Shown: in pieces, positions 6,886 through 55,902 of the stretch
Numbering within the stretch: the stretch's first letter is position 1
Layout of the letters: each line of letters starts with the position of its first letter
NCBI RefSeq assembly: GCF_035084215.1
Contig: NW_027139559.1
Span: 7,378,001-7,442,000 of the forward strand
Direction of reading: 5' to 3'
Length of the DNA: 64,000 nucleotides
Source: Heptranchias perlo
Lineage: Eukaryota
The notes under the pieces: model-generated
Databases searched by the model: none
Seen by the model: only the letters and a program-made list of their open reading frames with translations
Told to the model about the DNA's origin: nothing
Program-made: the position numbers and the translations under genes

Positions 6886-7832
6886 CTGCCATCACCTCCA
6901 CCTGAGGGCGGGATTGTGCCCCTTGTTGCATCCTGTAATTTGGAAGGTACATTTGATTTTTGGGACAATAGAGCAAGATAAAGTTGTCTGTTGCTGCTCA
7001 TTTCTCACCTTTTGCCCCTTGTGGTCATTGTTGGAGTTTCCCCAGATGGTGTTGGCCTGTTGAAGTTGCCTTTGAGAAGACATGGGTTTTGCAGTGAGGG
7101 AAAGTCTGTTGACCATGTGACCGGTTCACCTGGGGGTTTGAAAAACGAAAGTGCCGCATCTTGGTCGAGTTCAAACTTAACAAGTCCCCTTGTATGGTGG
7201 TGTTTGACAGCAGAATTATGCTGCAATTTTTTTCACAACCTTTGAGAATAAAATCTGACAACTCCGACCATTTCCTATCACCACCTGGTCCACTCACTCC
7301 TCCTGCTCACGGATCCAAACCCAGACAGTTGAGCTCACCCTTAATGGTCCCCATTTTGTATTGACCTCATTTCGGGCTGGCTTCATTTTCATTGCTCCGC
7401 ACTGATCAATTATCTCCCAATTTATAGTTCACTATTTATTACTTATCAGCAAAATATATGTTTACGTTTTCTTTCCATTATGTGATTTGATCTTCCGAAT
7501 TACTGCTCATTGTAATCATTAATAACATATGACCTCGCTTTGTTTTTGCTGATTTTAATCAATGGCCATAAACTTCCTGGGTGCTGCGCTGGCTTTACAT
7601 TGCTCCTCTGGCGAAGTTACGGCGTCAGAGCGGGAGCAGTTCCGAGTAAATTCTCAGAGAATGTCTTTGACTCATTTCTTCCTCTTTACTCGGAATATTT
7701 ATTTGTCATTATTTAATCAGCAATCTCACATACTCTCATAAGCTGTATGTTTCACACAAAATACTGTGGAACTCACTCCTTTGCTGTAACCTGATGCGTG
7801 ATTCACTGTTTTTGTTTCTTTCCCTTTTACAG

Positions 7833-8764
7833 CTAACGTGATGACGATTGTAATCCTGTCTCGGGGAAAGTGCGGTCTCTCGAAATGTGTCACTCGCTAC
7901 CTGGTGGCCATGGCAGCGGCGGATCTATTGGTCATTATCAATGACGTGGTACTGTTTCGGATCAAGGAGTTATATTTCCCGACTAGCTTCCTGTTCCTCA
8001 CCCCAGTATGCTCTTACCAAATTACCCTTAACCATGCTGTCTCAGACATCTCTGTCTGGTTAACAGTCGCTTTCACTTTTGATCGTTTTATAACCATTTG
8101 TTGCCAGAAGCTGAGGACTAAATATTGCACGGAGAAAACTGCAGCCGCGGTTATAGGAACGTTGTGTCCGCTGTTCTGTTTAAAAAACATCCCCTGGTAC
8201 TTTGCATTTGAACCCTCCATTACATTGGACAACGTAGCTTGGGGCTATCGTGTAAAACCAGACTGTTATACTTCAGCTGCATGGGTAGCATTTACATGGA
8301 TTCACCGCTGTTTGACTCCACTGCTCCCAATATTCCTGATATTGCTGCTCAATTCTGTTACTGTCGGAAACATTTTGGCGGCCAGTAGAGTCCGCAGGAG
8401 GCTTCGGGCCAGCAAGAGTGATGCGAATCACAATGATCCGGAGATGGAGAACCGAAGAAAATCCATCATCTTACTGTTTGCGATATCCGGCAATTTCATA
8501 CTGCTATGGATGACGTATATTTTATTTTTCCTATCAGTGCGAATTACAAACCGTTATTATTCCACAGGTTTCAATGACACGATGTTTATCGCAGATCAAA
8601 CCAGCTACATGCTCCTGCTGTTGAGCTGCTGCACAAACACGTGTATTTATGCAGCGACCCAGTATAAATTCAGAGAGGAGCTGAAGAATGGGGTGAAATA
8701 TCCTCTCAAATTAATATTTAAATTAGTTAAACGAGGACAAGAGCGGCAGAATTCCCAGCATTAG
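7833..8764 (+). CDS. Main coding exon of a class A orphan GPCR, GPR139/GPR142-like family; N-terminal exon not found in window
   Basis: Open frame of ~310 codons after a strong acceptor (tttcccttttacAG, 7831-7832; phase 1, giving ...A-N-V-M-T). Motifs AMAAADLLVII (TM2), TPVC, SVWLTVAFTFDRF (TM3/DRF), LTPLLPIFLILLLN (TM5), DPEMENRRKSIILL (ICL3/TM6), SCCTNTCIY (TM7), KFREELK (helix 8). Confidence 0.9.
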
Positions 8765-9395: not shown

Positions 9396-10559
9396 GACTC
9401 ATTATCGTTTTATTTCTTAAATGCTCCTAACAACGCTTGCTGCGTTCCTTGAAGTTGATCACATATTTTTGTCTCCAACCAAACCTTTTGAATTATGTTC
9501 TTTTGATAACTCGCATTTTGTTCCTTTTTGTTACCCAGTAACATTGATAACGTATCCGCTTTTTAACATGTTATTAGCTCAGACCTCTCTGTTTATTCAT
9601 GGATCTCTTGGTTTGCAAAACCCAATTGTTTCATATTGGGAGAATGTTTAAGTTGCACCTCACTCATGTCTTATTGAACCTTTACCAATCTGTGTTCACA
9701 TTTATCTCCTGAAAATGCCACCGCAGAGTTTATAACCATTTATTTAATCTTATTTTGTCACAACCTCCCTGATTATTCCTGGAATCTCTGTCAGTGATGT
9801 GAACCATTCAGCCTTTAACCTGTTCTTTATCCATTTGGTATTTAGCCGGACCCACAGCTGGACCCGTTCAATTTGCTTTCATTCCAGCCGATGAAAAGGG
9901 GCCAGTTCCACTATCAAGCGGGTCATTTCCTGTTAAGCATCATTATCTTCAAAACCCCCTTTCTTTGCAAAGAATGATGGGATCATTGGGTGTTACAGGA
10001 TAATTTAACCAGCCAATCTCCGCCGGTGTGTTTCCCGCTTGATAGTGGAACTGGCCCCATTTAATCGGCTGGAATGAAAGCAAATTGAACGGGTCCAGCT
10101 GTGTGGCCGGCTAAATACCGGATTGATAAAGAACAGGGTAAAGGCTGAATGAGTCACATCACTGACAGAGATTCCAGGGATAATCAGGGAGGTTGTAACA
10201 AAATAAGATTAAATAAATGGTTATAAACTCTGCGGTGGCATTTTCAGGAGATAAATGTGAACACAGATTGGTATAGGTTCAATAAGACATGAGTGAGGTT
10301 CAACTTAAACATTCTCCCAATAGGAAACAATTGAGTTTTGCAAACCAAGAGATGCGTGAATAAACAGAGAGGTCTGAGCTAATAACATGTTAAAAAGGGG
10401 ATACTTAATCAATGTTACTGGGTGACAAAATGGAACAAAATGCGAGTGATGAAAAGAACAGAATTCAAAAGGTTTGGTTGGAGAAAAAATATGTGATCAA
10501 CTTAAAGGAACGCAGCAAGCGTTGTTAGGAGCATTTAAGAAATAAAACGATAATGAGTC
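9396..10559. repeat. Long inverted repeat (foldback): arms 9396-9922 and 10034-10559, 111-bp spacer
   Basis: gactcattatcgttttatttcttaaatgctcc... is the reverse complement of ...ggagcatttaagaaataaaacgataatgagtc. Inner ends ...ttccactatcaagcggg / cccgcttgatagtggaa... Only scattered mismatches. Confidence 0.97.
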
Positions 10560-10734: not shown

Positions 10735-12420
10735 CTACAATGCTGCCTATCTTTTCGCCATCGGCAAATTTGGATATGTGGCTCTGTATCCCGTCATTTA
10801 AATCCTTAACAAATGATCCCTGTGGGACACCATTAACCATATCGTGCCAATTTGAGCACCTGCATATTATCCTTACTCTCTGTCTGCTGCCGCTCACCCA
10901 ATTTTGTAACCAGGTCAATAAATTGCGCTCAATTTCATGAGCTCCAACTTTAGCTAACAGTCTCTTATAATGGACTTTATCCAATGCCTTCTGGAAGTTC
11001 ATATTAACAACATCCATAGACAGTCAACTGTCCATCACTTTAGTCACCTCTTGAAAAAAATCAGATTTGTCAGGCGTGACTTACCCGTTACTAATCGATA
11101 CTGTGTCTCTCTGATCAGCTGAAATGTTTTAACGTGTTCAGTTGCTCTATCCTTAAATATAGAGTATTGTAATTTCACGACAAGAAACATTAGGCTAACT
11201 GGTGTATAATTCCCCGGTTTCCATCTCTCACCTTCCATAAATAGCGGAATAACATGTGCGATTTTCCAATCAAGAACTTCGGAAGATTATAGTTAGGGCA
11301 TCTGCAATGTTCTCACCGACTTCATTTAAACCCTCAGATGGAAATCTTTTGGTCCTGGCGATTTTTCACTCTTTCGTGTCATTATTTTCTTCATTGCTGT
11401 TAATTTGCTCGTCCCCGTCCCTGATGCAAAATTAATTTCCTTGGGGTGCTCTCCTCTTCCTCCACTGTAAATGGTGACGCAAAGTAATGGTTTAACATCA
11501 CGTCATTTCTTTATTTTCAATTACAATGTATCAGTTTTTAAGGGGCCCACATTGCTCTTGTTCACCCTCGTTTTCCTATTATAATTGTAAACATTTTGGC
11601 TGTTGATTTAGATATCCCTTGCAAGATTCTTTTCATGGACCCTTCTTGTGGCTCTTACTATCTGTTTTGTCATCCTCTGCTCTTCTTTGTATCTGTCACA
11701 TTCGCCAGGATCCGTGCTATTTTTTGCTTTTTTGTCTGCTTTTTCTTTTATTTTCATGTTGTCCCTTACCTCTTTTGTCGCCCATGTTTTTTTTGGCAAG
11801 TTGAACTCTCGCCCCTTAAGAGTATAAATTGGTTCAGTATCACGTTAGATGCTTTTTTTTTACACCTCCCACTGATCATCTTTATCTTTACCCATTAACA
11901 GATTTGCTCAGTTTAATTTGGACATTGTCTGTCTCATCTCGTTGAGTTCGGCCTGACCTAGACTTAGAATCTTAGCAGCTGTTACGGGTTTCTCCCTTTC
12001 AAACGCAACGTTGAACTCGATCATATTATGATTGGTATTAGATAAATATTCACGTACGTTTCGGCTGTTAACTAAGTCTGGCTCTTTAATAATTATTACA
12101 GCTGATATGTCCTGTCCCCTTGTTGGTTCCAGGAAATATTAGTAAAGAAAGCTGTTTTGAACACACTGAAGACATTCGCTGCTTTCTGACACGAGCTCGT
12201 CTGCTTATCCCAATCTATATGAAAGTTAAAATCCCCCAATTAAACCAATCTGTCTTTGCAACATGCTTGTCCAATATCCGCATTTTTACATCCATAAATT
12301 CTGCACTGCCTACTCACATCCAGCTATTTAATTGCTTTGATGCTTTGATATGGCGTTGTTAACCTGCATCGATACTTTTAGTGATTTGTGTATCTGTACC
12401 CCCATATCCCTGTGTCACTT
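10735..12420 (-). mobile_element. CR1 ORF2 fragment (APE through RT)
   Basis: DVVNMNFQKALDKVHYKRLLAK...GVPQGS; KPGNYTPVSL; WATKEVRDNMKIKEKA. Confidence 0.9.
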
Positions 12421-12494: not shown

Positions 12495-14975
12495 CATAAT
12501 GGACTTAATGGGGGACTTTAACCTTCACATAGATTGGGAAAATAGACTAGCAACTATCGGAAAGGTAGTGAATTTCTTGATTGTGTCCTGGATAGTTTTC
12601 TACAGCAGTATGTCCGAAAGGCAACAAGGGGTCAAGCCATGCTAGATTTAGTAATGAATAATAAAGTGGATTTAATAACGGCTTAACTGTACGCGAACAT
12701 CTATCCAACAGCGACCATAACATGATCGAGTTCAATGTAATGTTTGAAAGGGAAAAAGTTGAGTCGGCTGATAAGATTCTAGACTTGGGTAAGGCTGACT
12801 TCAATGGGATGAAACAGAGACTGTCCACAGTAAACTGCGCTAATCTGTTAATGGGTAAAACGACTGATGATCAGTGAAAAATGTTTAAAGAAACATTTAA
12901 CGAGATAAAGAACGGGTGTATACCTCTGAGGGGCAAGAACTCTACTTGCCAAAAAAAACAGTCATGGACAACTAAAGAGGTACGTGACAGTATAAGATGT
13001 AAGGAAAGGGCATACAATAGGCAAAAAATGGCACAGTTCCTGGAGAATGGGAAAGATACAAAGATCAACAAAGGGTCACAAAACAGATAGTAAGAGCTAC
13101 AAAAAGAGAGTTGAAAAGAAACTTGCAAGGGATATCAAAACCAATACAAATAACTTTTATGGTTATATTAGGAAAAAGAGGGTGGACAGGAGCAGTGTTG
13201 ACCCCTTAAAAACTGAAAGTGAGGATATTGTCAATGACAATGTGGAAATGGCGGACTTTGCGTCAGTATTTACAGTAGAAAAAGAGGATATGATGCCGCA
13301 TATCGCAAGTAAACTAATATTGAATCGGGGACAGGGACTCGATAAAATTAACATAAGTAAAACAACAGCAATGAAGAAAATAACACCACTAAAGGGTGAG
13401 AAATTCCCAGGACCAGATGGTTTCCATCCCAGGGTTTTAAAGGAAGTAAATGAGCACATTGCGGATGCTCTAACTATAATCTTTCAAAGTTCTCCAGATT
13501 CAGGAACTGTCCCTCTGGATTGGAAAATTGTACATATCACTCCGCTTTTTAAGAAAGGAGAGAGAGGGAAACCGGGGAATTATAGACCAGTTAGCCTAGC
13601 ATCTGTTGTGCGGAAATTGCTGTAGTCTATAATTAATGATAGCGTGACTGAACACCTCGAGAATTTCAGTTAATCATGGAGAGCCAGCATGGATTTATGA
13701 AAGGTGTGTCGTGCCTGACAAACCTGATTGAATTTTTTGAAGAGGTGACTAAAGTAGTGGAACGGGGAATGTCAATGGATGTTATTTATATGGACTTCCA
13801 GAAGGCATTTAATAAGGTCCCACATAAGAGACTGTTAGCTAAGTTAGAAGCCCATGGAATCGAGGGAAAAGTACGGGCTTGGTTCAGAAATTGGCTGAGC
13901 GAAAGGCGACAGAGAGTAGGGATAATGGATAAGTAATCACATTGGCAGGATGTGACTAGTGGAGTCCCGCAGGGATCTGTCTTGGGGCCTCAATTATTCA
14001 CAATATTTATTAACGACTTAGATGAAGGTTTAGAACGTCTCATATCTACGTTTGCCAAAGTACACAAAGATTGGTGGCATTGTAAGCAGTGTAGATGAAA
14101 ACATAACATAACAAAGCGATATTGATAGATTTGCTGAATGTGCAAAACTGTGGCAAATGAAATTCAATGTCGACAAATGTGAGGTCATCCACTTTGGATC
14201 AAAAAAATGAGAGAACAGGGTACTTTCTAAATGGTAAAAAAATTTAAAACAGTGGATGTCCAAGGGGACTTAGCGGTTCAGGTGCATCGATCATTGAAGT
14301 GTCATGAACAGGTGCAGAAAGTAATCAAGAAGGCTAATAGAATGCTGGCCTTTGTATCAAGAGAACTGGAGTACAAGGGGGCAGAAGTTATGCTGCAGCG
14401 ATACAAGACCCTGGTTAGACCGCACCTGGAGTATTGTGAGCAGTTCTGGGCACCGCACCTTCGGAAGGACATATTGGCCTTGGAGGGATTGCAGCGTAGG
14501 TTTACTGGAATGATACCCGGACTTCAAGGGTTAAGTTACGAGGAGAGATTACACAAATTGGGGATGTATTCCCTACAGTTTAGAAGGTTAAGGCGTGATC
14601 TGATCGACTTTTATTGGATGTTAAGGGGAACGGATATGGGGGATGTCGATAAACTATTTCCGCTGGTTGGGGATTCTCGGAGGAGGGCGGCACAGTCTAA
14701 AAATTAGAGCCAGACCTTTTCGGAGTGAGATTACAAAACATTTCTACAAACAAAGGGTGCTAGAACTTTGGAACTCTCTTCTGCAAAACGGCAATTGGTA
14801 CCAACTCAATTGGTAAATTTAAAATTGAGCTTTTTGGCAACCAACGGTATTAAGGGATATGGGCCAAAGGCAGGTATATGGAGCTCGATCACAGATCAGC
14901 CATGATCTTATCAAATGGCGGAGCAGGCACGTGGGGCTGAATGATCTACTTATGTTCCTGTGTTCCTATGTTCCT
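12495..14975 (+). mobile_element. 5'-truncated CR1 (APE through RT to 3' end)
   Basis: GPDGFHPRVLKE...DWKIVHITPLFKKGERGKPGNYRPVSL; QHGFMKGVSCLTNLIEFFEEV; LVRPHLEYCEQFWAPH; ends (tgttccta)n. Confidence 0.95.
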
Positions 14976-15880: not shown

Positions 15881-16231
15881 CATGTAATTCAGCGACTAGA
15901 GAGGCTTGTAACAAAAGCAGAGATGTTTTACTGGGAGACTTTCATTTTCTTTTAGATTGGGAAGAGCCGAGTAGATCAAGTCAGACAGGAAGTGAATTTC
16001 TTGAGTGCATTCAAGATAACTTTCTATAGCCAAATGTTATCGCACCAACAATAGGCCAGGTCAGACTAGATTAATAATGAATAAAGCGCCAGACAGACTT
16101 GAAAATCCAACAGTAAGTGAACATTTTCTGTCAGTGGTCATAATATGATCGAATTCAATGTTAGGATTGAAACGGAGAAACGTAACAGTTACTAAGATTT
16201 TAAATTATGGTAAGGTAACTTTAATTAAATG

Positions 16232-16430
16232 AAGGAATCTTACAACACCAGGTTATAGTCCAACAAATTTATTTTAAAATCACAAGCTTTCGGAGATTAT
16301 CCCCTTCGTCAGATGAAGGGGATAATCTCCGAAAGCTTGTGATTTTAAAATAAATTTGTTGGACTATAACCTGGTGTTGTAAGATTCCTTACATTTGTCC
16401 ACCCCAGTCCATCACCGGCATCTCCACATC
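16232..16430 (+). mobile_element. Short palindromic non-autonomous element (Penelope-like pseudo-LTR derivative) with 11-12 bp target-site duplication
   Basis: Perfect 76-bp arms at 16232-16307 and 16315-16390, a tail ...ccagtccatcaccggcatctccacatc, and TSD TTAATTAAATGA at 16221-16232 and 16431-16442. A related copy lies at 54573-54748. Confidence 0.85.
16280..16316 (-). ncRNA. Minimal type I hammerhead ribozyme motif
   Basis: Minus strand: UCAU-CUGACGA-AGGGG-AUAAU-CUCC-GAAA-GC-UU-GUGA. Both catalytic boxes are intact, stems I and II can pair, and stem III is reduced to the palindrome AAGCUU. Confidence 0.7.
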
Positions 16431-16487
16431 TTAATTAAATGAGACAGGGACTGACGACAGCAAACTGGTCAAAAGTGTTATCGGGTA

Positions 16488-16958
16488 GGTCCTATCTCTC
16501 TATTGAGATCCGATCTCTCTATTGAGATCCTATCACTCTATGGAGATCCTATCTCTGTCGAGATCATAGCATTCTATTTAGATCCTAAAACTCTATTGAG
16601 ATCCTATCTCTCTAACGAGATCCTATCTCTCTATTGAGATCGTATCACTCCATTGAGATCCTATCACTCTATGGAGATCTTATCTCTCCGTCGAGATCGT
16701 ATCATTCTATTTTGATCCTTTCAGTCTATTGAAACCCGATCACCCTATTGAGGTCCTACCGCTCCACTTGAGATTCTGTCACTCTATTGAGATCCTTTCG
16801 CTCTATTGTGATACTATCACTCTATTGAGATCCTATGAATCAACTGAGATCCTATCACTATTGAGATCCTATCAATCTTTTGAGATCCTATCACTTTATT
16901 GAGATCTTATTGCTCTATTGAGATCCTATCAATCCATTGAGAACCTATTGCTCTATTT
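16488..16958. repeat. 19-bp minisatellite (~24 copies)
   Basis: Unit approximately ctattgagatcctatcact. Confidence 0.92.
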
Positions 16959-18574: not shown

Positions 18575-19030
18575 GTTTCATTGATCCGAATGGGAGGCAA
18601 TTATCCAGATTGTTAAAACACAAACGATTAAGTACACTTCCAGGTTCAGGCCGTGTTTCGATCTCCTGCCGTCTGGTTTACATTGAATATTATGTTTAAA
18701 CTATAATCTTGGACAGTTCTGTCTTTGTGCATTCACTAATATATGGTACAGGGTGGTGAATGTGTTGAAAAACGTAGCAGTCCTTGTGACAATGGAGGAC
18801 AGAACGAATGTGTTGGGCAATGCAGTGACCTGATGTGCGTTTGGTCTCCTCAGTGTGGAGCACACCGCGGGCTGAGTAAAAGCAGTGACCTGATGTTCGT
18901 ATGGTCTCCGCAGTGTGGAGCACACCCCGGGCTGAGAAAAAGCAGTGACCTGATGTGCGTTTGGTCTCCCCAGTGTAGAGCACACCCCGGGCTGAGTAAA
19001 AGCAGTGAACTCGACAGGGGAGTAATGTTT
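18575..19030 (-). mobile_element. Decayed Penelope-like element 3' ORF remnant (GIY-YIG endonuclease region)
   Basis: Minus-strand VLYTGETKRTSGHCIAQHIRSV...VFQHIHH resembles the PLE endonuclease pattern LYIGETKRxLxxRFxEHxRSV...VAxHFN; an LPFG-INE-like C-terminal remnant lies near 18575-18600. Confidence 0.65.
18822..19008. repeat. 60-bp tandem triplication inside the GIY-YIG remnant
   Basis: gcagtgacctgatgtgcgtttggtctcc.cagtgtggagcacacc.cgggctgagtaaaa x3. Confidence 0.95.
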
Positions 19031-19584
19031 CAAGAAAGGAAAATCCCGACAGTGCGGGTTGCAGCAATGGAATTTATTGGGGATAGCGGGACTCAATCGG
19101 GATAGATATAGTACAAATCTTTTTTGAAAAAATATGTAGTTAAATTGACATCGTCCACAATTCTGAGAAGCGATTTTATGATTTTTTTTCTGAACCACTG
19201 TTATCGTACACATTGTGGCAGTTAAATGTCAGCGATTTGATGAGAAAGATTAATCGCTCCCTTTTTTGTTACTGAGACTTCTTGATCAAGCAGCGGAAGC
19301 AGCTCAGGAAAACGAAATGCTGATGATAACGTTGGTGAACGATTTCCATGGCGACACAGAGTCCAACAAAACAGGAAACTTACTGAGAAACCATCAATTA
19401 TTGTCGACGTGTACCGACACACGGCGCTGCCCAGAGATGTTATTTCTGTTATTCTCCACAGTGAAAAGCATTTATACATTCAATTTTTAAAAAAGCGACT
19501 TGCCTTTCAATTCTTTTGCACTTAATCGGTATCATTGACCGGTAACAGAAATTTTGCTTCCATTACCGACAGACACAAAGAAAC

Positions 19585-22500
19585 TGCGTCGGCCCACTCT
19601 CTCCCCATATTCCTGCAACAATCTGAAACTAATCCCACTGGTCCACTGTCTCCCCATATTCCAGCATCAATCCCAAACTAGCCCCACTGGCCCGCTGTCT
19701 CCCCATAGTCCAGCATCAATCCCAAAATAATCCCACGGGCCCACTGTCTCCCCATATTCCAGCATCAATCCCAAACTAGCCCCACTGGCCCGCTGTCTCC
19801 CCATAGTCCTGCATCAATCCCAAAATAATCCCACTGGTCCACTGTCTCCCCATAGTCCTGCATCAATCCCAAAATAATCCCACTGGTCCACTGTCTCCCC
19901 ATAGTCCAGCATCAATCCCAAACTAATCTCACTGGCCCTCTGTCTCTCCATAGTCCTGCATCCATCCCAAACTAACCCCGGTGGCCCGCTGTCTCCCCAC
20001 AGTCCTGCATCAATCCCAAAGTAAACACACTGGCCCGCTGTCTCCCCATATTCCTACATCAATCCCAAACTCATCCCATTCGCCCACTGTCACCCCATAG
20101 ACCTGCATCCATCCCAAACTAATCTCACTGCGTCGCCCTATTCCCATAGTCCTGAATCAAACTCAAATTAATCCAACTGCCCCGCTCTCTCCCTGTAGTC
20201 CTGCAAAAAGTCCAAACTAATCCCAATGCCCCACTGTCTGCCCATAGTCCTGCAACAATAGCAGACTAATCCCACTGACCCCCTCTCTACTCATCGTCGT
20301 GAATCAATCACAGACTAATCAGAATGACCCCCACTCTCCTCATCGTCCTGAATCAATCCCGGACTAATCCCACTGACCCCCTCTCTCCACAAAGTCCTGA
20401 ATCAATCACAGACTGTCCCAGTGAGCCCCTCTCTCCTCATAGTCCTGCATCAATCCCAGAGTAATCCCACTGACACCCACTCTCCCAACAGTCCTGCATC
20501 AATCCCAGAATAATCCCACTGACCCCCTCTGTCCTCATAGTCCTGAATCAATCCTAGACTAAACCCACTGACCACCTCTCTACTCAGAGTCCTGAATCAA
20601 TGCTAGATAATCACACTGACCCACTCTCTCCTCATAGTCATGAATCAATCCCAGACTAATTCCACTGAGCCCGCTCTCCTCATAGTTCTGAATCAATCCT
20701 AGATTAATCCCACTGATCTCCTCTATCCCCTAATCCTGAATGAATCCTAGACTAATCCCATTGACCCCCTATCTATTCATAGTCCTGATTCAATCCGAGA
20801 CTAAACCGACTGAAACTTTCTCTCCCCATGGTCCTGAATCAATCCTAGACTAATCACAGTGACACCCGCTCTCCTCATATTCCTGAATCAATCCCAGACT
20901 AATCCCATTGACCCCCTCTCACCTCATAGTCCTGAATCAATCCCAGACTAATCCCACTGATCCCCTCTTGCCACAGAGTCCTGAATCAATCTAAGACTAA
21001 TCCCACTGACCCCTTCTCTCCTCATAGACCTGAATCAATCCCAGAAGAATCACACTGACCCGCTCCCTTCTAATATTCTTGAATCAAACCCAGACTAATC
21101 ACACTGACCCCGTATTTCCACATACTCCTCTTCAATCCCAGAAAAATCCACTGTCCCCTCTCTCCCCATAGTCCTTAATCTATCCGAGACTAATCCCACT
21201 GACCCACTCTCTCCCCATATCCGAAATCAATCCCAGACAAATCCCACTGACCCCCTCTCTCCTCATTGTCCTGAATCAATCCAAGATTAATCACACTGTC
21301 ACCCTCTCTCCTCATAGTCCTGAATCAATCCTAGATACTCCCACTCACCCCCTCTCTCCTCATAGTCCTGAATCAATCCCAGACTAATCCTACTGACCCC
21401 ACCCCCCCCTCTCCTCATAGTCCTGAATCAATCCTAGATAATCCCACTCACCCCCTCTCTCCTCATAGTCCTGAATCAATCACAGACTAATTCCACCGAC
21501 CCCCGCTCTCTTCATAGTCCTGAATCAATCGTTGACTGATCCCACTGACCCGTTCTCTCCCCAAATACGAAATCAATCCCAGGCAAATCCCACTGACCCC
21601 CTCTCTCCTCATTGTCCTGAATCAATCCAAGATTAATCACACTGTTACCCTCTCTCCTCATGGTCCTGAATCAATCCTAGACTAATCCCACTGACCACCT
21701 CTCTCCTCATAGTCCTGAATCAATCCGAGATAATCCCACTCACCCCCTCTCTCCTCATAGTCCTGAATCAACACCAGACTAATCCCACTGACCCAACCCC
21801 CTCTCCTCATAGTCCTGAATCAATCCTTGACGAATCCCATTGAACCCCTCTCTCCTCATAGTCCTGAATCAATCCCAGACTAATTCCACTGACGCCCGCT
21901 CTCCTCATAGTCCTAAATCAATCCCAGACTAATCCCACTGATCTCCTCACTCCCCCTAATCCTGAATGAATCCTAGACTAATCCCATTGACCCCCTATCT
22001 CTTCATAGTCCTGATTCAATCCGAGACTAAACCCACTGAAACTTTCTCTCCCCATGGTCCTGAATCAATCCTAGACTAATCCCACTGACACGCTCTCTCC
22101 TCATATTCCTGAATTAATCCCAGACTAATGCCACTGACCACTTCTCCCCTCATATTCCTGAATTAATCCCAGACAAATCCCACTTACCACTTCTCTCCTC
22201 ATTGTCCTGAATCAATCCCAGACTAATCCCACTGATCCCCTCTCTCCTCAAAGTCCTGAATCAATACCAGACTAATCCCATTGACCTCCTCTCTCCTCAT
22301 AGTCCTGAATCAATCCCAGACGAATCCCACTGACCCCCTCTCCCCTCATAGACCTGAATCAATCCCAGAAGAATCACACTGACCCGCTGGCTTCTAATAT
22401 TCTTGAATCAATCACAGACTAATTACACTGACCCCTATTTCCACATACTCCTCTTCAATCCCAGAAAAATCCCACTGTCCCCTCTCTCCCCATAGTCCTT

Positions 22501-24665
22501 AATCAATCGGAGACTAATCCCACTGACTCTCTCTCTCCCCATATCCTAAATCAATCCCAGACAAATCCCACTGACCCCCTCTCTCCTTATTGTCCTTAAT
22601 CAATCCAAGATTTATCACACTGTCACCCTCTCTCCTCCCAGTCCTGAATCAATCCTGCACTAATCCCACTGACCCCTTCTCTCCTCATTGTCCTGAATCG
22701 ATCCCACACTAATCCCACTGACCATCTCTGTCCTCATTGTCCTGCATTAATTCCAGACTAATCCCACTGACCCCCTCTCTCTTTATAGTCCTGATTCAAT
22801 CCAAGACTAATCCCACTGACCGCCTCTCTCCTAATAGTCCTGCATCAATCCCAGAATAATCCAACTGACCCCCTCTATCCTCATAGTCTTGAATCACTCC
22901 CAGACTAATCGCACTGATTCTCTCTCCTCATAATCCTGAGTCAATCCCAGACTAATCCCAGTGAGCCCCTCTCTCCCCATAGTCCCGCATCAATCCCAGA
23001 CTAATCCCACTAACCCCCTCTCTTCGCATAGTCTTGAATCAATCCCAGACTAATCCCACTGACCCCCTCTTTCCACATCGTCCTGCTTCAATCCTAGACT
23101 AATCCCGGTGTCCACCTCTCGCCCCTTGGTCCTGAATCAATCCGAGGCTGAACGCACTGAACCGCTTTCTCCCCATATCCTAATTACATCCCAGATTAAT
23201 CCCACTGACCCCCTCTCTCCTTATTGTCCTGAAACAATCCTCGACTATTCCCATTGAACTACTCTCTCCCCATCGTCCTGAATCAATCCCAGACTAATCC
23301 CACTGACCCTCTCTCTCCACATGGGCCTGAGTCATTCCCAAACGAATCCAACTGACCCCCTCTCTCCTCATAGTCCTGAATCAATGCGAGACAAATCAGA
23401 ATGACCCCCTCTCTCCTCATAGTCCTGAATCAATCCTGGACGCATCCCACTTACCTCCTCTCTCATCATTGTCGTGAATCAATCCCAGACTAATCCCACT
23501 GACCCGCTCTCTCCTCATAGTCCTTAATCAATCCCAGTCTAATCACACTGAACCGTTCTCTCCTCATAATCCTGCTTCAATCCCAGACTAATCCCACTGA
23601 CACCCTCTCTCCTCGTAGCTCTGAATCAATCGCAGAATAATCCCTCTGAACCCCTTTGTGCTCATTGTCCTGAATCAATCCTAGACTAGTCCCACTGACC
23701 CCCTCTCTCCTCATTGTCCTGAATCAATTCTAGACTAATCACACTGACCCCCTCTCTCCTCAGAGTCCTGAATCAATCCGAGACTAATCCAAATGACCCC
23801 CTCTCTCATTGTCCTGAATCAATCCCAGATTAATCACAATGACCCCCCTTTCTCCTGATAGTCCTGAATCAAACCTAGACTAATCCCACTGACGCCCTCT
23901 CTCCTCATAGTCATGAATCAATCCTAGATTAATCACACTAGCCCCCTCTCTCCTCATATTCCTGAATCAATCATAGACTAATCCCACTGGCGCCCTCCCT
24001 CCTCATAGTTCTGAATCAATCCTAGACAAATCCCACTGGCCCCTCTCTCCTCATAGTCCTGCTTCAATCCCAGACTAATCACACTCTCCGCGTGCTCCCC
24101 ATTGTCATTTTTCAATTCCAATCTAATCCCAATGCCCTATTCTTTCATATGGCCACGTATCAAACTCAAATAATCCCACTGCCCTTCTCTCTGCCCCGAA
24201 ATGTGTATCAATCCAAGACTAATCCAACTGTCCCACTTTCAAGCCATGGCCTTGTACCAAACTAAAACTTACCACACTCTTCCCATAACCCTGTATCAAT
24301 CACAGGACCATAGAAGCAAAAAACGACACAGCACAGAATGAGGCCATTCGGCCGATCGTGCTTGTGCTGCTTCCTTTGAAAAAGCTATCCAATTAAGCCA
24401 CATTATCTTCCCATAACTCTATTTCAAGCCTATACTAACCCCACTGACACCCTCTCTCCCCGTAGCACTGTACCAATCCAAGATTAATCCCACTGACCTG
24501 CTCTCTCCCCATTGCCCTGTATTAATCCCAAACTAATCCCACTATCTCGCTATCTGCCCAAAGCCCTGTATCAATCGAAAACTAATCTCAATGCCCCTCT
24601 CTTTCCACATAGCCCTGTATCAATCCCAAACGAATCCAACTTTCGCTCTCTCTTTTTGTAGCCCT
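19585..24665. repeat. ~5 kb satellite, 49-bp unit (~100 copies), strongly C-rich on the plus strand
   Basis: Unit tcctgaatcaatcccagactaatcccactgaccccctctctcctcatag; period 49 (e.g. 21861 to 21910). Confidence 0.97.
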
Positions 24666-41445: not shown

Positions 41446-42324
41446 TAAGAACCACATCTGCACTTCTATCATTCTATTTCTTTTGATGCAACGATAAAAA
41501 TATTTGATATTCTCCTTAATATCCCTTGGAATTGTTGTCTATCTGATGGTGCATTTCATAATTTCATGATATCCTTTTATTTTTGATAATAGTTCTGGCT
41601 GTCAAACTTTCCATTGTCTTCGCCTTGACATAACCTTTCCCCTTTTGTTTAATTCTGGCTCTAACTATTTAATTTCACCATAATTACATCATCCATTTAC
41701 AATTTCCATTTCTGGGATTGTATTTTCTTTTGCTCGCTGATCACCTTCTTGAATCAATTGCACTAATTGTCCATCGATTTACCGACTGAAATTTATCCCA
41801 TCCTTCCGCCGTCATTACTTTCCTTATATCTTCATAGTGAGGCAGGTTTAAGTGCTAAATCACTGTTTGCTGATCTCCTTTCTCCCTCGCAAATTTGATG
41901 GTGACTTTAAGCACGTCACGCTAAGTCGTCCCAGGATGCTTCCTTATCAAGATATTGCTAACTATTTTTGGATTATCACTCAGAAACATTCGATAAATCT
42001 CTTTCCTTTTTAGTGTGCTTCTAACCTTCCCCAATCTAGATATAAAGTAATACTTCCCATTATTGGTATTTTCTTCTGCTGAAATGTCTCAATAATTGTC
42101 GTACACTTGCGTTCCTCTGTTGTTATCATATTCAGGAGGATTTATAAATGTGCTAGTTAATCACTTGGGAACGAGTAATGAAGTCCAATCTAATACTGTT
42201 ATGTTCATTGTGCTTGTATTAGAATATTTTGTTCATCATTTGTACCCAGGTTATGTCTAAGGTATGAACTCAGCTTTCTACTGAATTTACACAATGTCAC
42301 TGTGCTATTGAAAGATGATATTAC

Positions 42325-42482
42325 CTTAAGTACGGTTACAAATGTACTGTACAGCATACTGAGAATAAACAGAATCACGAAAGCGATCACTGTTGATGCC
42401 GTGCTGCCATCCTCATATAAGTTTTCTAATCCTTCTTCCTCTACCTCGGGGTCTTCTGGATCGTCCTTTAATTGAGGGGTTT
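42325..42482 (-). CDS. IgNAR transmembrane exon TM1
   Basis: Acceptor ttctAG (42484-42483), donor AAG|GTAAT. Encodes (E)TPQLKDDPEDPEVEEEGLENLYEDGSTASTVIAFVILFILSMLYSTFVTVLK: acidic spacer plus the conserved antigen-receptor TM (CART) motif F..LF.LS..YST.VT..K. Confidence 0.93.
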
Positions 42483-43944
42483 CTAGAACCAATAGATTGA
42501 TATTGTTAGAAAGGTGGTCATGTTGAGAACAGAATAGATACAAAGGCGCTGCAATAGAATGAAACCGGCAATCGTGAGGGATACGGCGTATTCGAATTTG
42601 AACTAACGGAACATAAAAATATAGTTAACACATTAACCAGCCCGATATCGATTACGGTGATTTTCAGAATATTGGGGGTTCGCTTATAGTGATAGTAGAG
42701 TTCAGATATTGTATATAAACGGAGGATTGATTTTACTCGGCAAATATATCCGTCCATTTTACGTTTCAGCGAATAAAAAGCTTTACGATGCTGATAAGTG
42801 CTTTCCATTAAAATTAATTTCGCATTTGAAAGCTGATAACAACAAAATGAACGAAATTATATCTAAAAGAATGAAACTCGATGCCATTCTGAACAGAAGG
42901 TGATCTGATTATCGGACCAAATCTCTTGCGGCTCACATAGAATGACATAAGAGATCGGCAGTAAAGCGGGGGCAGGGAAACACTGCGGGCTAAAGATTCA
43001 ACTTTGACTGATCAGCGCACTTTATGTTCGACTGTCGAAACCTTTTGACATTTTATATCAAATGTTGCTTGCAGATACAGACACATTCTGAAATAGGACT
43101 ATATATAAACTATTTTACATTGTCATCTATACAGTGGCGTTAGACCTGCATCATTGTCATTAGATTTAGTTGTGATTTACGGTGATGACGCTGACATTCT
43201 GTTCGGTTTCGTATTCCTGACGTGATATATTTCTTTAGTAATTTTTTGTTTTTTCTATTATTATTATCTCGTGGAATCTATAACACACCGCAGCGTATAT
43301 TCCTGGATGGTGCCACTAATATTCCGTGATATAAACACGTTATGTACGTTTACCCCGTACGTTTTGGCCATGAGAGTCAGAATTGAAAATGAAGTTAATA
43401 ATTCATTTAAACTTCGGAATGTGTCACCACTGACAAATCTCGGGTCATGTAGACTCTCAGGTTATGATAATCCTGGCCGATATTTCGGGAGGTGGGGTGA
43501 GGGTAGGGCTTTGTATTTGCATTGAGTGTGGGCGATTGGATTCTGAAACTCAAAGCATCATAATCGCAGTAGTGACTGACCTGGCGCAGAGTAAACTTTG
43601 TCATATTGTTACAAATTCGTATGGTCATTTACAAATCATAAGCTTCACTCTACGAGTGTTATTCTACATTGAACTGACATGCTGCGTGATCTAAATAGCA
43701 CCAAGCTGGGCCGCAAAACCGACCCCAAAGCAAGTCCTGTCTAATCACACCGAAGCTGAATCTACGGTGAGCTATCCGAGTTCGAATGCACTTCTTTAGC
43801 ATCATCTGATTACATATTGTGGGATTCACAGATTGGCACCGTGAGAAGGACAGCACATCAATTTGCTCACTAACTCGGTGCAGCTGGGCATACGTCGAGC
43901 CACGAACTGAAGGATGTGTTATTTGCAGTGTGAGATAAGCAGCA

Positions 43945-44280
43945 CAGCGAGATATCCTCCAGCATGGAGAGATACCATAGCCCATAGAACAGCGGCTCCA
44001 TCCACTCGCGGAGATATCCTCCAGCATGGAGAGATATCCTCCAGCATGGAGGCATACCACACCCCATATAACTGCGGCTCCACCAACTCACTGAGATATC
44101 CACCGGAATGGATACTTACCTTATCCAATAGAAAGGAGGCTCCACTCGTTCATCGAGATATCCACCGGAATGGATCAATAACATACCCCTTAGAATGGCA
44201 GCTACACCCAGTCACCGAGATATCCTCCAGCATGGACAGATACCATATGTGATGGAACGGCAGCTCCTCCAGATGGAGGT
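43945..44280. repeat. Degenerate 62-bp tandem repeat with a 20-bp internal duplication
   Basis: gagatatcc(tccagc/accgga)atgga at 43949, 44011, 44031, 44093, 44155 and 44217. Confidence 0.85.
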
Positions 44281-44884
44281 ACCAAGATTCAGCAACATCT
44301 GCTTGGCTCTCCGCCAGCCAGTCATGATGGTTGCCCAATGTTGGATACGTGAGCGTATTTTCCCATACCTGACCACCAGGTGCAGCCTTCCCTGACCTGG
44401 CCGATCTCAAAACAATTGTTTAGTCTCCTGCCTTGTGACTCCCACAGGATACCAATTGTAACAGAAACTTAACAGAATGAACTGTGTTTAAGGTGATTGG
44501 TGTAATGGCTTCGTGCTGTTCTGTTTTTTGCAAGACTAGTTTTTTCCCGCCTTTCAGAAGGTGGTGAGTCTTTACGGATGGGCCTGGATGTCGCCCTGCC
44601 CACCAGTTCTCCAACCTGGACAATTTGTTCAGGCGGAGCGTCTGCGCTTATCAAGTTTCAACGGGACACTCGAAATAACGTCCTGTTTTTCTCTTGGGAA
44701 GAAAATGCAGCGCCACCGTTGGCGGCAAGGGCTCGCTGTCGGCTGGGATTCTCAAAGAATATTCTTCATCTCTGTCGCTCAGCTTTCCATTGGCCGAATC
44801 TGTGTTTCTCCCTGACCTGTGTTTTAACTGAAGTGATATCAGCCAGAATGACGACGATGATAAGAAACAATGGTTCCATTTCAT

Positions 44885-45330
44885 AGATCGCCTTTCACCC
44901 CCACAGGAGGTCTCAAAAGTTTCACAACCAAATAATTACTTTTTAAAGTGTAATCGCTGTTACTTTTATAAACAACCCCGCAGCCAATAAACCCAGAACA
45001 AAGGTCTAAGAGCATCACTGTCGTTAATGGGACGCTTAGTCTGTTTTTTTAAATAGTGTAGGTTCAGGACGGAATATAGGTCCCAGATTGCGGGAGAGTT
45101 CGCTGCTCCTTTAATCTCCCATGGGATCTTTAACACCCAGGTGAAAAGTCCGACGGGGCCCAGGAGAAGCGTCTCATCTGAAACGCCACACCTTCGACAA
45201 AGCAGCACCCCCATGATTATTGTGCTGGAGTGTTAGCCAAGATTATGGGCCGAAGTCCTGGAGAGGAGCTTGAACCCACAAGCTTCGAATTCAGAACCCA
45301 GAGAGCTGTCAATGAGCCAAGATGACACGA
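44885..45330 (-). mobile_element. tRNA-derived SINE with Deu-like central domain (SacSINE1/AmnSINE-like) and L2-type tail
   Basis: Minus strand: TGGCTCA..GGTTCAAG head, ...ttcagatgagacg...ttaaagatcccatgg... core, ...gtgaaaggcgatctat tail. Confidence 0.7.
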
Positions 45331-45409
45331 AACTGATAAGAGGATAGTTCCAAACTCAATGAAACCTTTTACAATGGCATGGATTGATAGCTCAATATAA
45401 GAACAATAT

Positions 45410-46535
45410 TACTTTCATTTATACAGCGCCTTTAACGCAGGAAAACGACTCAACGCGCTTCACAGGAGCGCAATCAGACAAAATTTGATACCGAGCCATA
45501 TAAGGAGATATTAGGACAGATGACCAAATGGTTGGGTAAAGAGGTAGGTTTATACAGGGTGTTAAAACAGAGAGAGTTGGAGAGTCGCAGAGGTTTAGGG
45601 AGAGAATCTCAGAGGTTAGAGCCAAGGCAGTTGAAGGCACGGCCGCCAATAGTGGAGAGATGAAAACCAGGGATGGACAAGAGGCCAGAACTGGAGGAAC
45701 GCAGAGATCTCGGAGGGTTGTAGGGCTGGAGGAGGTTACAGAAATAGGGAGGGGACGAGGGCTATGGAGGAATTTGGACACGAGGATGAGAATTTTAAAA
45801 CTGAGGTATTGCCAGACCGGGAGCCAATTTCGCTCACCGAACACAGGGGTGATGAATGGACTTAAATTGTTGTGAGTTAGAATACGGACAGCAGAGTCAA
45901 GTTTACGGAGGATAGAAGCTGGGAGGCTGGCCAGGATACCATTGGAATAGTCAAGTCTGGAGGTAACAAATGCATGGATGAGAGTTTCAGCAGCAGATGG
46001 GTTGAGGCAGCCGCAGAGACGGGCGACGTTATGGAGGTGGAAGTAGACGGTCATGGTGATGGAGAGTATCTGGAGTCGGAAACTCAGCTCAGGGTCAATA
46101 AGGAACTCGAGGCTGCGAACAGTGGGATTCAGCCTCAGACAGTGGGCAGGTGGAGAGATGGAGTCGGTGACTAGGGAACAGAGTTAGTGGTGGGGACCAA
46201 AGATAATGGCTTTGGTTTTCGCAATATTTAATTTGAGGAAATGTCTGCTCATCTAATACTGGATGTCGGATAAGCAGTGTGACAAATCAGAGAGAGTGGA
46301 GGGATCGAGAGTGGTGCTAGTGGGTTACAATTGGGTGTCGGCAGCATAAATGCTGAATCTGACATTTTGTTTTCAGATGACGTAGCCAACGGGCAGCACG
46401 AAGATGAGAAATAGGAGGATCCAAATATAGATCGGTGGGGGGACTCCAGAGGTAACGGTGTGGGAGCGGGAAAAGAAGTCATTGCGGGAGATGCCCAAGC
46501 AACGACTGGATGGATAAGAATCGAACCAGGCAATC
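45410..46535 (-). mobile_element. L2-clade LINE 3' portion
   Basis: AETLIHAFVTSRLDYSNGILASLP...WLPVWQYLSFKILILVSK; tail ...aaaggcgctgtataaatgaaag. Confidence 0.9.
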
Positions 46536-46827
46536 AACAGCCTTGGTCAATAATTGTCATTCGAAAGGGTGACCGGATGTTAGTCGACCTTTATTAATTC
46601 CGTTCACAGGTCGATAACTCATGGGTCAATTTAAACCAGAGAATGAATGTAATCTGATTAAAAGCATCACGAGTGTTTGTAAAAAATTGGGGAATTGAAA
46701 CGTGTTGCACAGGTGGAATATTAGACAATGGACACCATAGATTTCTGGATCAAGGTTTAAACCATCATCACCAAGATAACACGCACACAAACAACGAATC
46801 GGGAAGTCAGGAGGTTTTCATTCTGCA

Positions 46828-46833
46828 TTTATT
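46828..46833 (-). promoter_or_regulatory. Polyadenylation signal of the secretory IgNAR mRNA
   Basis: AATAAA ~285 nt after the tailpiece stop, followed by a GU-rich tract (ttgtttgtgtgcgtgtt). Confidence 0.65.
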
Positions 46834-47118
46834 GCGATTTGCGGAGCCACATACAGTCTAAAGCATCATTTCCTGTTTATCCAATAACGTCACTGAACCC
46901 TTCAAAGAATCTTCAAAAATATTGCAACTTGTATCAAGCGGTATTAAGGTTATTCACCATTATCGGATTATAACCGTAATCATCCTTCATTCACTGATAT
47001 AGTCTCATAGATTTGCGAAATATCTAAACAATCGTTAGCTGATCTGGAGGTTGACTCAGATGCCCGAACATAACAGGTCTAACACTTCTATAGAAAACAG
47101 CTATTGAACCACGGGGGG

Positions 47119-47501
47119 TTATGTACACGATTGAAAACTGTCGGTTAGAACTAGTGAAACATTAACTAAAGTAGGTTTACCGTAAGATTTATTTATACTT
47201 CTGTGTAAATTCATTGTGAGAGACGGGTGTCCCACTAAACAGGAGTAAGTGGTCCCGCCGTTCCACTCCGCTGCGGTGACTCTCAGTCTGCTGACAATGG
47301 AGCTGGAACCACTTTCCTTCTCCGTGTCCGGTTGGGTGGTGTAACCTGAATCCAAAAGGGTGTCATTGGCCATCCACGCGACGTAAATCTCGGCAGGGTA
47401 AAAGCCGGTTGCTAAACACACCAGAGTTGCCGTCTTCTCAGTGTCAATCTCGACCGCTGATGGAGGCAGGACGTAGACTTTAGGAGGATACATTCCGTCA
47501 A
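47119..47501 (-). CDS. IgNAR C5 domain plus secretory tailpiece (internal donor after 47181 for the membrane form)
   Basis: Acceptor tctttccAG. (V)DGMYPPKVYVLPPS...TLVCLATGFYPAEIYVAWMANDTLLDSGY...YSCLVGHPSL...NKSY G|GTAAA; tail GKPTLVNVSLVLTDSFQSCT*. Confidence 0.95.
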
Positions 47502-47849
47502 CTGGAAAGAGAACAATATTTGTTAAACTGAGTCTGTCTCCTGTCCGTCCTTCACTTCCCATTCCCGTCTGCTGGTAATTTGCGTCTTTGGACAATTGGA
47601 ATTGTTATCTGAGAGAGTTTACACATTTCTCTGCGGGGCCATGGATTTCTTTAATGTTCTTTCTTTTGGGAGTTTTCATTGTGGCCTGATGTTATTTTGC
47701 TAAGAGTTGGGGACAATCTCATATTTGGATAACGATGATACTGTTGTGACGCAACAGTTTCAAACCGCTTACATTTTTCTCGCTATTCTTTACCCGTGGG
47801 GTGAATGGCAGAATCCCGTACTATGTTTCACTGATTATACGAGCATTTC

Positions 47850-48552: not shown

Positions 48553-48628
48553 ATGTAGAAAATGAATGATCTTTGACGACCATTGATGGAGTAGCGTCAG
48601 TCTCTGAACGAATATTATCTGTGCTTAC

Positions 48629-48949
48629 CCTTTACTTTTCTGGTGGAGATTTTCACTGGTGTTGGCAATTCAATGTCTTCCACGAAGCACAAATATTCAA
48701 CCCCACTGCCCCATTCTGTCGTGGTGACTTTTAGTTTACTAACGATTGTGGATTTACTTCCATTCCACTCAGGAGCCTGAGTCTCCACTCCTTCCGTTCT
48801 CCGACTCCCATCCACTTGCCAGGACACGCTGACGTTTTCTAAATCGCTATAAACGACTTCACAAACAATGGTCGCTGTTCGTTTGGTCCAAATCTCTTCA
48901 AAAGAAGGGTTCAGTATGATGACAGAAATGTCTGTCTCATGACATACAC
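48629..48949 (-). CDS. IgNAR C4 domain exon
   Basis: ttctttccAG...G|GTAAG; 321 nt, phase 1-1. (G)VCHETDISVIILNPSFEEIWTKRTATIVCEVVYSDLENVSVSWQVDG...EYLCFVEDIELPTPVKISTRKVK, with the extra N-terminal Cys seen in IgNAR C4. Confidence 0.95.
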
Positions 48950-53642: not shown

Positions 53643-53718
53643 CTGTAACGGAAGTTCAATAAGTGTTAGTCTTCCATCCATTGCCATTCGAAGACATGTC
53701 TATAGATATTTTACCCAC

Positions 53719-54219: not shown

Positions 54220-54790
54220 AACTAAGAGAGAGAGAGAGAAACAAGAGACAGAGAGAGAGGGACATGGAGAGACAGAGCGTGACAGACAGATAGGGAGAGA
54301 GGCAGGGAAATAGACTGATAGAGAGAATCAGAGAGAGAAGGACAGAGAGAAAGAAAAAGGAAGAGACAGGCGAACAGTTAGAGAGAAACAGGGTGAGAGA
54401 GCAAGACAGAGAGAGACGGAGAAAGGGGGACACAGAGAGAGAGAAAGGGACACAGAGAGAGACAAATTGAGAGAGACAGATATTGAGAGACAGCAGAGCG
54501 AGAGAGAGAAACAGACAGAGAGAGAGTGAGGGACAGAGATAGAGAGGCACAGAGAGAGACAGACAGAGAGAGATGTAAGGACTTGCACAACACCAGGTGA
54601 AAGTCCAACAGTTTTATTTTCGTCACCTGACGAAGGAGGTAAGCTCCGAATGCTTGTGATTTAAAATAAAACTGGTGGACTATAACCTGATGTTGTGCAA
54701 GTCCTTACATTTGTCCAGCCGTGTCCATCACCGGCATCTCCACATCATGACAGAGAGAGAGAGAGAGGGAGAGAAAGAAAGAGAGAAAGA
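54220..54790. repeat. Purine-rich (GA)n/(GACA)n low-complexity tract
   Basis: gagagagaga/gacagaga runs; explains the Leu/Ser-rich ORFs. Confidence 0.95.
54573..54748 (+). mobile_element. Second palindromic Penelope-like short element, with a mutated hammerhead core
   Basis: 48-bp arms at 54573-54620 and 54663-54710 (4 mismatches); loop TCAC-CTGACGA-AGGAG-GTAAG-CTCC-GAAT-GC-TT-GTGA; same tail gtccatcaccggcatctccacatc; apparent TSD gacagagagaga. Confidence 0.82.
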
Positions 54791-55864: not shown

Positions 55865-55902
55865 CTGAGAAAATTACAATGACAATTAAACCGTTTATAT
55901 CG

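What the first reader, a model, noticed from the sequence alone, without database searches (positions are those of the whole stretch)
16221..16442. Young palindromic mini-element carrying an intact minimal hammerhead ribozyme
Seen: a ~200-bp insertion with perfect 76-bp inverted arms and a TTAATTAAATGA target-site duplication that splits an older CR1. The minus strand reads UCAU-CUGACGA-AGGGG-AUAAU-CUCC-GAAA-GC-UU-GUGA; the plus arm has a one-base-broken core (CAGAUGA). Established: Penelope-like elements carry minimal type I hammerheads in their pseudo-LTRs, with a palindromic stub as stem III that works through dimerisation, and often insert with an inverted partial LTR. Inference: this is a recent (arms identical), non-autonomous ribozyme-bearing retroelement family that an ORF-based annotation would miss entirely.
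Basis: partly seen in the sequence, partly recalled or inferred. Interest (0 to 1): 0.8.

Follow-up and report, generated by a model that had tools for sequence, protein, structure and literature searches.

The report
Truncated Penelope retroelement end with hammerhead
This is the short, folded-back tail end of a known kind of jumping gene (a Penelope-like retroelement) that landed fairly recently in a shark-like genome; it carries the usual tiny self-cutting RNA motif of such elements, but here that motif is buried in a long hairpin and is probably dead, so the find is ordinary.

Summary
In detail: a 198-bp insertion (16233-16430) between a perfect 12-bp duplication splits an old LINE; its arms are 78/79 complementary, and the minus strand matches the minimal type I hammerhead consensus (only strict hit in the window; 3 of 200 shuffles give any). 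An inverted, 5'-truncated copy plus a one-sided 30-40-bp tail plus a minimal hammerhead is the published signature of Penelope-like element (PLE) insertions. So this is most likely a dead, twin-primed, 5'-truncated PLE end, not a self-contained ribozyme element. The hammerhead straddles the inversion junction; any transcript reading through the palindrome must pay about 50 kcal/mol to fold it, there is no same-strand partner for dimer cleavage, and no insertion end lies at the predicted cut. No RT/GIY-YIG partner could be linked with these tools. One lead survives: both copies end at the 5' edge of the hammerhead, which could mean a short non-autonomous template or a junction hot-spot. Interest low.

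The parts
16221..16232 (+). Left target-site duplication TTAATTAAATGA (11 of 12 A/T, contains ATT); 16232 is shared with the arm
16232..16310 (-). Inverted, tail-less copy of the pLTR 3' end (starts 40 nt short of the element's 3' end)
16280..16316 (-). Minimal type I hammerhead motif: stem I 16316-16313/16283-16280, core CUGACGA 16312-16306, bulged A 16305, stem II 16304-16292, GAAA 16291-16288, AGCU stub, predicted cut 16284/16283; overlaps the inversion junction and is sequestered in the hairpin
   Evidence: consensus in PMC4209133 Fig. S3
16306..16316 (.). Inversion junction inside the quasi-palindromic 11-mer around the hammerhead core; matches the antisense of the natural 11-mer at 10/11 and its sense at 7/11
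16312..16390 (+). Sense, 5'-truncated copy of the pLTR 3' end; hammerhead lacks its 5' stem I strand and U4 (reads CAGAUGA)
16391..16430 (+). One-sided 40-bp PLE-type tail, 27 of 40 bases A or C
   Evidence: PMC8557442, PMC11167929
16431..16442 (+). Right target-site duplication
15904..16232 (+). Left part of the interrupted, degenerate LINE ORF2 (endonuclease-end region; CR1-like by recall), 67-71% identical to paralogues
16431..16489 (+). Right continuation of the same LINE, ending at a 19-bp minisatellite (16490-16957)
54574..54748 (+). Second family copy: 47-bp inverted arm 54574-54620 (4 mismatches), sense copy from about 54621 with natural stem I UCAC/GUGA, core CUGACGA 54627, GAAA changed to GAAU, 39-bp tail; candidate 12-bp TSD 54562-54573/54749-54760 inside a (GA)n tract (low complexity, weak); lies in an intron of the Ig heavy-chain gene

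Best explanation
It is the extreme 3' end of a Penelope-like retroelement pseudo-LTR, inserted once as a head-to-head inverted pair. Inferred mechanism: a PLE protein (RT + GIY-YIG, encoded elsewhere) nicked both strands of AT-rich target DNA 12 bp apart and primed two cDNAs on the element RNA at two internal start sites about 40 nt apart; both cDNAs stopped early (5' truncation) and their 3' ends annealed through the quasi-palindrome around the hammerhead core; repair fixed a near-perfect palindrome with a one-sided tail and a 12-bp TSD. The hammerhead is the normal passenger of the pLTR; in this copy it is most likely inactive. Shown: anatomy, TSD, split LINE, second copy with the same outer ends and another junction, motif match, unfavourable fold. 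Inferred: PLE parentage, two-nick twin priming, junction by micro-homology, inactivity in vivo.
For: Published PLE signature: adjacent inverted 5'-truncated copy plus a 30-40-bp tail at one end only (PMC8557442, passages); inverted pLTR overlapping the direct one, palindromes at the junction, 8-10-bp TSDs (PMC3846280, passages); in vitro a lizard PLE protein cuts and extends both strands, prefers ATT, and starts RT at two internal sites that bound the tail (PMC11167929). Here: tails 40 and 39 nt, outer ends at +115/+116 and arm starts at +75/+77 from A9 in the two copies, while inner junctions and arm lengths differ (79 vs 47 bp). The 3' end lies 92-93 nt past the predicted cut; the lizard RT start region lies about 85-92 nt past its cut (my arithmetic from the paper's +26 and +111-118; which of its two sites that is was not clear from the text). 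Motif fits all four extra features of the min-HHR consensus that can be read from one sequence or two: bulged base after A9, G10.1-C11.1, palindromic 15.2-16.2, AU-rich 3' flank; the same UCAC/GUGA stem I occurs in the lamprey Poseidon and sea-urchin PLE entries, and GCUU after GAAA in 2 of 56 entries. No end of either insertion lies at the cut (+23), in line with the finding that uncleaved RNA is the template.
Against: No RT/GIY-YIG ORF could be tied to this repeat: three word searches found nothing, the full HMMER search of the GIY-YIG-like relic gave one hit with no significant stretch, atlas and PDB searches were blank. Only 2 copies were available; no eukaryotic nucleotide collection or repeat library is on hand. 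Both copies stop at the 5' edge of stem I, which random truncation of a 3-kb RNA would not predict. Rfam finds no hammerhead family here. No two-sided covariation among 8 pairs (only two independent sequences).
Confidence: 0.8

Rival explanations
1. A short non-autonomous PLE-dependent element: an RNA of about 125 nt that begins at the 5' edge of the hammerhead is the template, is mobilised in trans, and is inserted as a twin-primed inverted pair (closest to the first reader's view).
For: In both copies the longer arm ends at or within about 3 nt of the stem I 5' strand; copy 2's junction holds a 7-nt match to the antisense of the core (54619-54625), so it may also have joined in the core and later lost about 28 nt of its left arm. 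Non-autonomous PLE derivatives are described (PMC8557442 passage; bioRxiv 10.64898/2026.07.22.740005).
Against: n = 2; only 2 of those 7 nt are not explained by the simpler reading; the quasi-palindrome is itself a micro-homology hot-spot, so longer cDNAs trimmed at annealing give the same picture; junctions differ between copies; no promoter or transcript evidence.
Confidence: 0.12
2. The palindrome itself is the mobile unit (fold-back or MITE-like DNA element, or an active ribozyme-processed retrozyme unit).
For: Near-perfect inverted arms and a TSD.
Against: The inverted repeats are not terminal (40-bp tail on one side); the second copy has other arms; no head-to-tail repeat; cut site is not an end; hammerhead cannot fold in the palindromic RNA.
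Confidence: 0.03
3. The inversion arose after insertion (fold-back duplication or arm conversion of an older solo pLTR end), or is an assembly artefact.
For: Long palindromes are prone to conversion and to assembly chimeras (general knowledge); arm identity alone cannot date it.
Against: A single TSD encloses both arms and the LINE is collinear across it; the second copy independently starts its inverted arm within 2-3 nt of the same position.
Confidence: 0.04
4. The hammerhead match is chance.
For: Rfam has no hit; no two-sided covariation; copy 2 has GAAU.
Against: 0 of 200 shuffles give a match as good; fits the published PLE min-HHR consensus and lies where PLE hammerheads lie; 24 of 24 cells paired, with a G-U/A-U swap in stem II and a different loop.
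Confidence: 0.01

Closest known systems
EN+ Penelope-like elements (Penelope/Poseidon, Neptune): 5'-truncated insertions with inverted pLTR and tail (PMC8557442, PMC3846280, PMC2377424, PMC8969392; passages)
   Same: Head-to-head inverted 5'-truncated copy, one-sided 30-40-bp tail, palindrome at the junction, TSD of about 10 bp, hammerhead near the 3' end, AT-rich or microsatellite targets.
   Different: Extremely short (no ORF left); junction falls inside the hammerhead core; clade and parent ORF not identified here.
Minimal type I hammerheads of metazoan PLEs (PMC4209133; main text parts 1-2 of 4, supplement parts 1-2 of 3)
   Same: CUGANGA-H-G...C-GAAA-N-palindrome-NUH, 4-5-bp stem I, AU-rich 3' flank; the paper also notes pairs on opposite strands 100-700 bp apart and mostly single motifs from truncated PLEs.
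   Different: No cartilaginous fish among its 56 aligned motifs; here the two opposite-strand motifs overlap, stem II is short (4-5 bp), and the motif is locked in a hairpin.
Poseidon of Anolis carolinensis, PAc (PMC11167929; parts 1-2 of 4; its sequence file could not be read)
   Same: Two end positions bounding an AC-rich tail, ATT-containing target, similar distance from hammerhead cut to 3' end, ends not at the cut.
   Different: PAc ORF starts inside the hammerhead; here no open frame runs from the hammerhead through the tail; no sequence comparison was possible.
Non-LTR retrozymes (bioRxiv 10.64898/2026.07.22.740005; parts 1-3 of 5, supplements closed)
   Same: Non-coding, pLTR-related, type I hammerhead; reported in the one chondrichthyan sampled.
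   Different: Retrozymes are head-to-tail repeats with two or more same-strand hammerheads; this is head-to-head with one.

Membership tests
Penelope-like element (EN+) | RT + GIY-YIG ORF linked to this terminal repeat | tested here: inconclusive
   None adjoining either copy; searches blank. A 5'-truncated copy is expected to lack it; the rest of the genome is not available.
Penelope-like element (EN+) | Adjacent inverted 5'-truncated copy (head-to-head) | tested here: met
   2 of 2 copies
Penelope-like element (EN+) | 30-40-bp tail at one end only | tested here: met
   40 and 39 bp
Penelope-like element (EN+) | Hammerhead motif in the terminal repeat | tested here: met
Penelope-like element (EN+) | Target-site duplication, no poly(A) tail | tested here: met
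   12 bp in copy 1; low-complexity candidate in copy 2
Penelope-like element (EN+) | Partial-tandem (direct pLTR) arrangement / match to a named Repbase or Dfam family | not testable with these tools
Minimal type I hammerhead ribozyme | Core C3-A9, G12-A15.1, U16.1-H17 with stems I and II | tested here: met
   Minus strand 16316-16280; not met on the plus arm (A at U4) or in copy 2 (GAAU)
Minimal type I hammerhead ribozyme | Palindromic 15.1-16.1 stub for dimer stem III | tested here: met
   AGCU; duplex -2.5 kcal/mol, AAGCUU -4.3
Minimal type I hammerhead ribozyme | Fold accessible in its genomic context, with a same-strand partner | tested here: not met
   +50.1 kcal/mol in read-through RNA; stem II probability about 0 with 10 nt or more upstream; single strict motif in the window
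Minimal type I hammerhead ribozyme | Compensatory changes across copies | tested here: inconclusive
   0 of 8 pairs two-sided, 3 one-sided, three rows of which two are independent
Minimal type I hammerhead ribozyme | Self-cleavage | not testable with these tools
   needs in vitro assay
Non-LTR retrozyme | Head-to-tail tandem units, two or more with a full hammerhead | tested here: not met
MITE / fold-back DNA element | Inverted repeats at both termini, constant structure between copies | tested here: not met
   One-sided tail; arms 79 vs 47 bp

The most novel reading that the evidence does not exclude
A chondrichthyan PLE family whose insertions come mostly from a very short (about 125-nt) non-autonomous RNA starting at the 5' edge of the hammerhead, with the quasi-palindromic hammerhead core itself serving as the annealing site that joins the two cDNAs. 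The ribozyme core would then have a second, non-catalytic role in integration, and thousands of such insertions would be a genomic record for testing the two-nick, two-start-site model of PLE transposition.
Probability: 0.15. Interest if true: 0.5.

Novelty: new member of a known kind. Interest (0 to 1): 0.2.

Why it matters
As it stands it matters little: PLE minimal hammerheads occur in thousands per genome in many animals (PMC4209133) and inverted truncated copies with tails are the usual PLE insertion. It extends the examples to a cartilaginous fish family that I did not find described (searches; repeat libraries could not be checked, where it may well be listed). It would matter more if junctions cluster in the hammerhead core genome-wide, because how PLEs make inverted repeats and what their hammerheads are for are both open questions (PMC8557442, PMC11167929).

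Tried and rejected
Rfam at gathering threshold on the whole window: 0 hits; at E up to 10 on 16150-16500: 22 hits, all below gathering score, none a hammerhead family, the best being miRNA-hairpin models that only see the palindrome. Protein searches with natural open frames of the repeat, to reach a PLE ORF: 44-aa frame of copy 2 (5 candidates, none scored) and 42-aa frame of copy 1 (none). A GIY-YIG-like stretch at 18696-19073 (minus; resemblance recalled, by eye): no support from Pfam, word search (46), full HMMER search (59: one 2495-aa hit without a significant stretch, not examined), atlas (62) or PDB (63); it stays unconfirmed and is not linked to this repeat. Search of prokaryotic genomes for host-contaminant copies: arm motif 0 hits; tail 24-mer 58 hits, all 58 in open frames reading DVEMPVMD on the opposite strand in receiver-domain-like context (label recalled), 4-12 of 30 upstream bases identical, no blastn hit of the arm: codon convergence, rejected. 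Plasmids: no match. Co-folding two hammerhead units gave an intermolecular stem II pairing, not a double hammerhead; not informative. Reading copy 2's inverted arm as a run-off at the ribozyme cut was considered and set aside: it needs AAA read as CG, whereas two other readings need no mismatch. A splice donor in copy 2's loop II is absent from copy 1; not pursued. Lunse et al. on PLE hammerhead dimers (PMC5785218) is not held; known only through the review PMC6765202 (passages).

Full report
Setting. The window is vertebrate genomic DNA rich in degenerate LINEs. It holds immunoglobulin C1-set exons on the minus strand at 47-56 kb (Pfam C1-set, E 1e-20 to 2e-22); the best PDB match of the 53.3-53.7 kb domain is 'Novel antigen receptor' (4q9c), which points to a cartilaginous fish (inference; that this entry is a shark protein is recalled).

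Observation. The insertion spans 16233-16430 between two copies of TTAATTAAATGA. The arms 16232-16310 and 16312-16390 are complementary at 78 of 79 positions, 76 of them in one perfect run. The left and right flanks align collinearly to 2 of 3 LINE paralogues tested, with the 12-mer position present once in each; 0 of 1000 shuffles reached the scores; the third paralogue was not significant. One of these paralogues continues into an RVT_1 frame, so the host is a LINE ORF2; 'CR1' is a recalled label. The host is only 67-71% identical to its paralogues and is frameshifted, so the insertion is much younger than its host, though it cannot be dated here and arm identity can be maintained by conversion.

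The hammerhead motif. On the minus strand 16316-16280 reads stem I (4 bp, closing U-G), CUGACGA, a bulged A, stem II (5 bp, 3-nt loop), GAAA, GC, UU, stem I. My descriptor found this as the only strict hit on either strand; 3 of 200 dinucleotide shuffles gave any loose hit and 0 of 200 one as good; of 9 places with CUGANGA followed by GAAA, only this one has the stems. It fits the consensus of metazoan PLE minimal hammerheads in Fig. S3 of PMC4209133 (56 motifs, all read; none from a cartilaginous fish; GCUU after GAAA in 2 of 56; UCAC/GUGA stem I in the lamprey and sea-urchin PLE entries). Rfam does not detect it.

(1) The plus arm carries 40 extra bases (16391-16430) with no partner. (2) A second copy lies at 54574-54748, 99 of 115 columns identical over the sense arm. 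It also has an inverted arm and a one-sided tail. The outer ends agree: inverted arms start at +75 and +77 and the 3' ends fall at +115 and +116 counted from A9; tails are 40 and 39 nt. The inner junctions do not: arms are 79 and 47 bp. Copy 2 shows the natural stem I strand (UCAC), a G-U to A-U swap and another loop in stem II, and has lost A15.1 (GAAU); its arms differ at 4 of 47 sites, so it is older. (3) The centre of copy 1's palindrome is U4 of the core. The natural 11-mer around the core is a quasi-palindrome; the observed 16306-16316 matches its antisense at 10 of 11 and its sense at 7 of 11. So CAGAUGA on the plus strand is the junction, not a mutated second ribozyme, and the minus-strand UCAU is either the natural UCAC with one change or is borrowed from the other arm.

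Mechanism. An inverted 5'-truncated copy next to a direct one, with a 30-40-bp tail at one end only, is the described structure of PLE insertions (PMC8557442, passages; PMC8969392, passages; PMC2377424, passages); overlap and palindromes at the inverted junction and 8-10-bp TSDs are described in rotifer PLEs (PMC3846280, passages). A purified lizard PLE protein nicks and extends both target strands, prefers ATT, and starts reverse transcription at two internal sites that bound the tail; hammerhead cleavage is not needed and no RNA ends map at the cut (PMC11167929, parts 1-2 of 4). Applied here (inference): two nicks 12 bp apart prime two cDNAs from sites 40 nt apart; both stop early; their 3' ends anneal in the quasi-palindrome; repair gives the palindrome, tail and TSD. 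Simple self-priming of one cDNA does not fit well, because the strand that carries the antisense core is the tail-less arm, and it could not copy a tail it does not contain. The TSD is 11/12 A+T and contains ATT; the tail is 27/40 A+C; no end of either copy lies at the predicted cut (+23).

Is the ribozyme active here? Probably not. In RNA read through the insertion on the minus strand the hairpin (-147.1 kcal/mol) beats the hammerhead-constrained fold (-97.0) by 50.1 kcal/mol; with 10 nt or more upstream of the core stem II has probability about 0, and even with 4-6 nt only about 0.23. Minimal hammerheads need a second same-strand copy and cleave weakly even then (PMC4209133; PMC6765202, passages); in a recent test 1 of 9 frog dimer elements cleaved (bioRxiv 10.64898/2026.07.22.740005). 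In copy 2 the fold is accessible (0.8 kcal/mol from the minimum) but the core is broken. CUU is an allowed NUH site (PMC12192606, passages).

Against my reading. I could not link the repeat to any RT/GIY-YIG protein, so PLE membership rests on architecture and motif, not on the enzyme. Two copies give no covariation test (0 of 8 pairs with two-sided change). The 58 prokaryotic matches to the tail are codon convergence.

Novelty. The kind is known. A paper search for hammerhead + cartilaginous fish + ribozyme + retrotransposon returned 0 papers and the listings showed no description of this family, but one chondrichthyan was already found to carry PLE-related hammerhead repeats, subscription papers and repeat libraries were not searchable, and supplements I could not see may list it. 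Verdict: real feature, new member of a known kind, interest 0.2.

Noticed in passing
window 9396-9922 / 10034-10559: Large inverted repeat, about 525-bp arms, 94-99% complementary, 111-bp spacer; not identified, no hammerhead motif found by the scan.
   Followed up: no
window 10815-12070 / 12676-13977: Two old LINE copies head-to-head, 74-84% complementary in pieces; used as paralogues of the interrupted LINE.
   Followed up: partly
window 18696-19073 (-): 60-bp tandem repeat (3.1 copies) encoding a C..YxGETKR..H motif that resembles a PLE GIY-YIG end by eye (recalled); all searches blank.
   Followed up: yes
window 42205-55946 (-): Immunoglobulin heavy-chain constant exons (at least five C1-like exons, a secretory-type tail near 47.1 kb and a transmembrane-like exon near 42.3 kb), IgW/IgNAR-like; the second repeat copy lies in an intron, hammerhead antisense to the gene.
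   Followed up: partly
window 7802-8764 (+): Uninterrupted 320-codon frame matching 7tm_1 (rhodopsin-family GPCR, E 2.7e-14).
   Followed up: no
window 16388-16407 (+): Branch-point-like CTTAC, pyrimidine tract and CAG at the start of the tail; PLEs are known to keep introns in their pLTRs, but the matching site is altered in copy 2 and no shared donor was seen.
   Followed up: no
window 16490-16957 and 19593-24085: 19-bp minisatellite (about 25 copies) truncating the host LINE 47 bp after the TSD, and a 49-bp satellite of about 92 copies.
   Followed up: no
loci L001-L058: The tail 24-mer occurs exactly in 58 prokaryotic loci because its opposite strand encodes a conserved receiver-domain-like motif; a trap for motif searches with this repeat.
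   Followed up: yes
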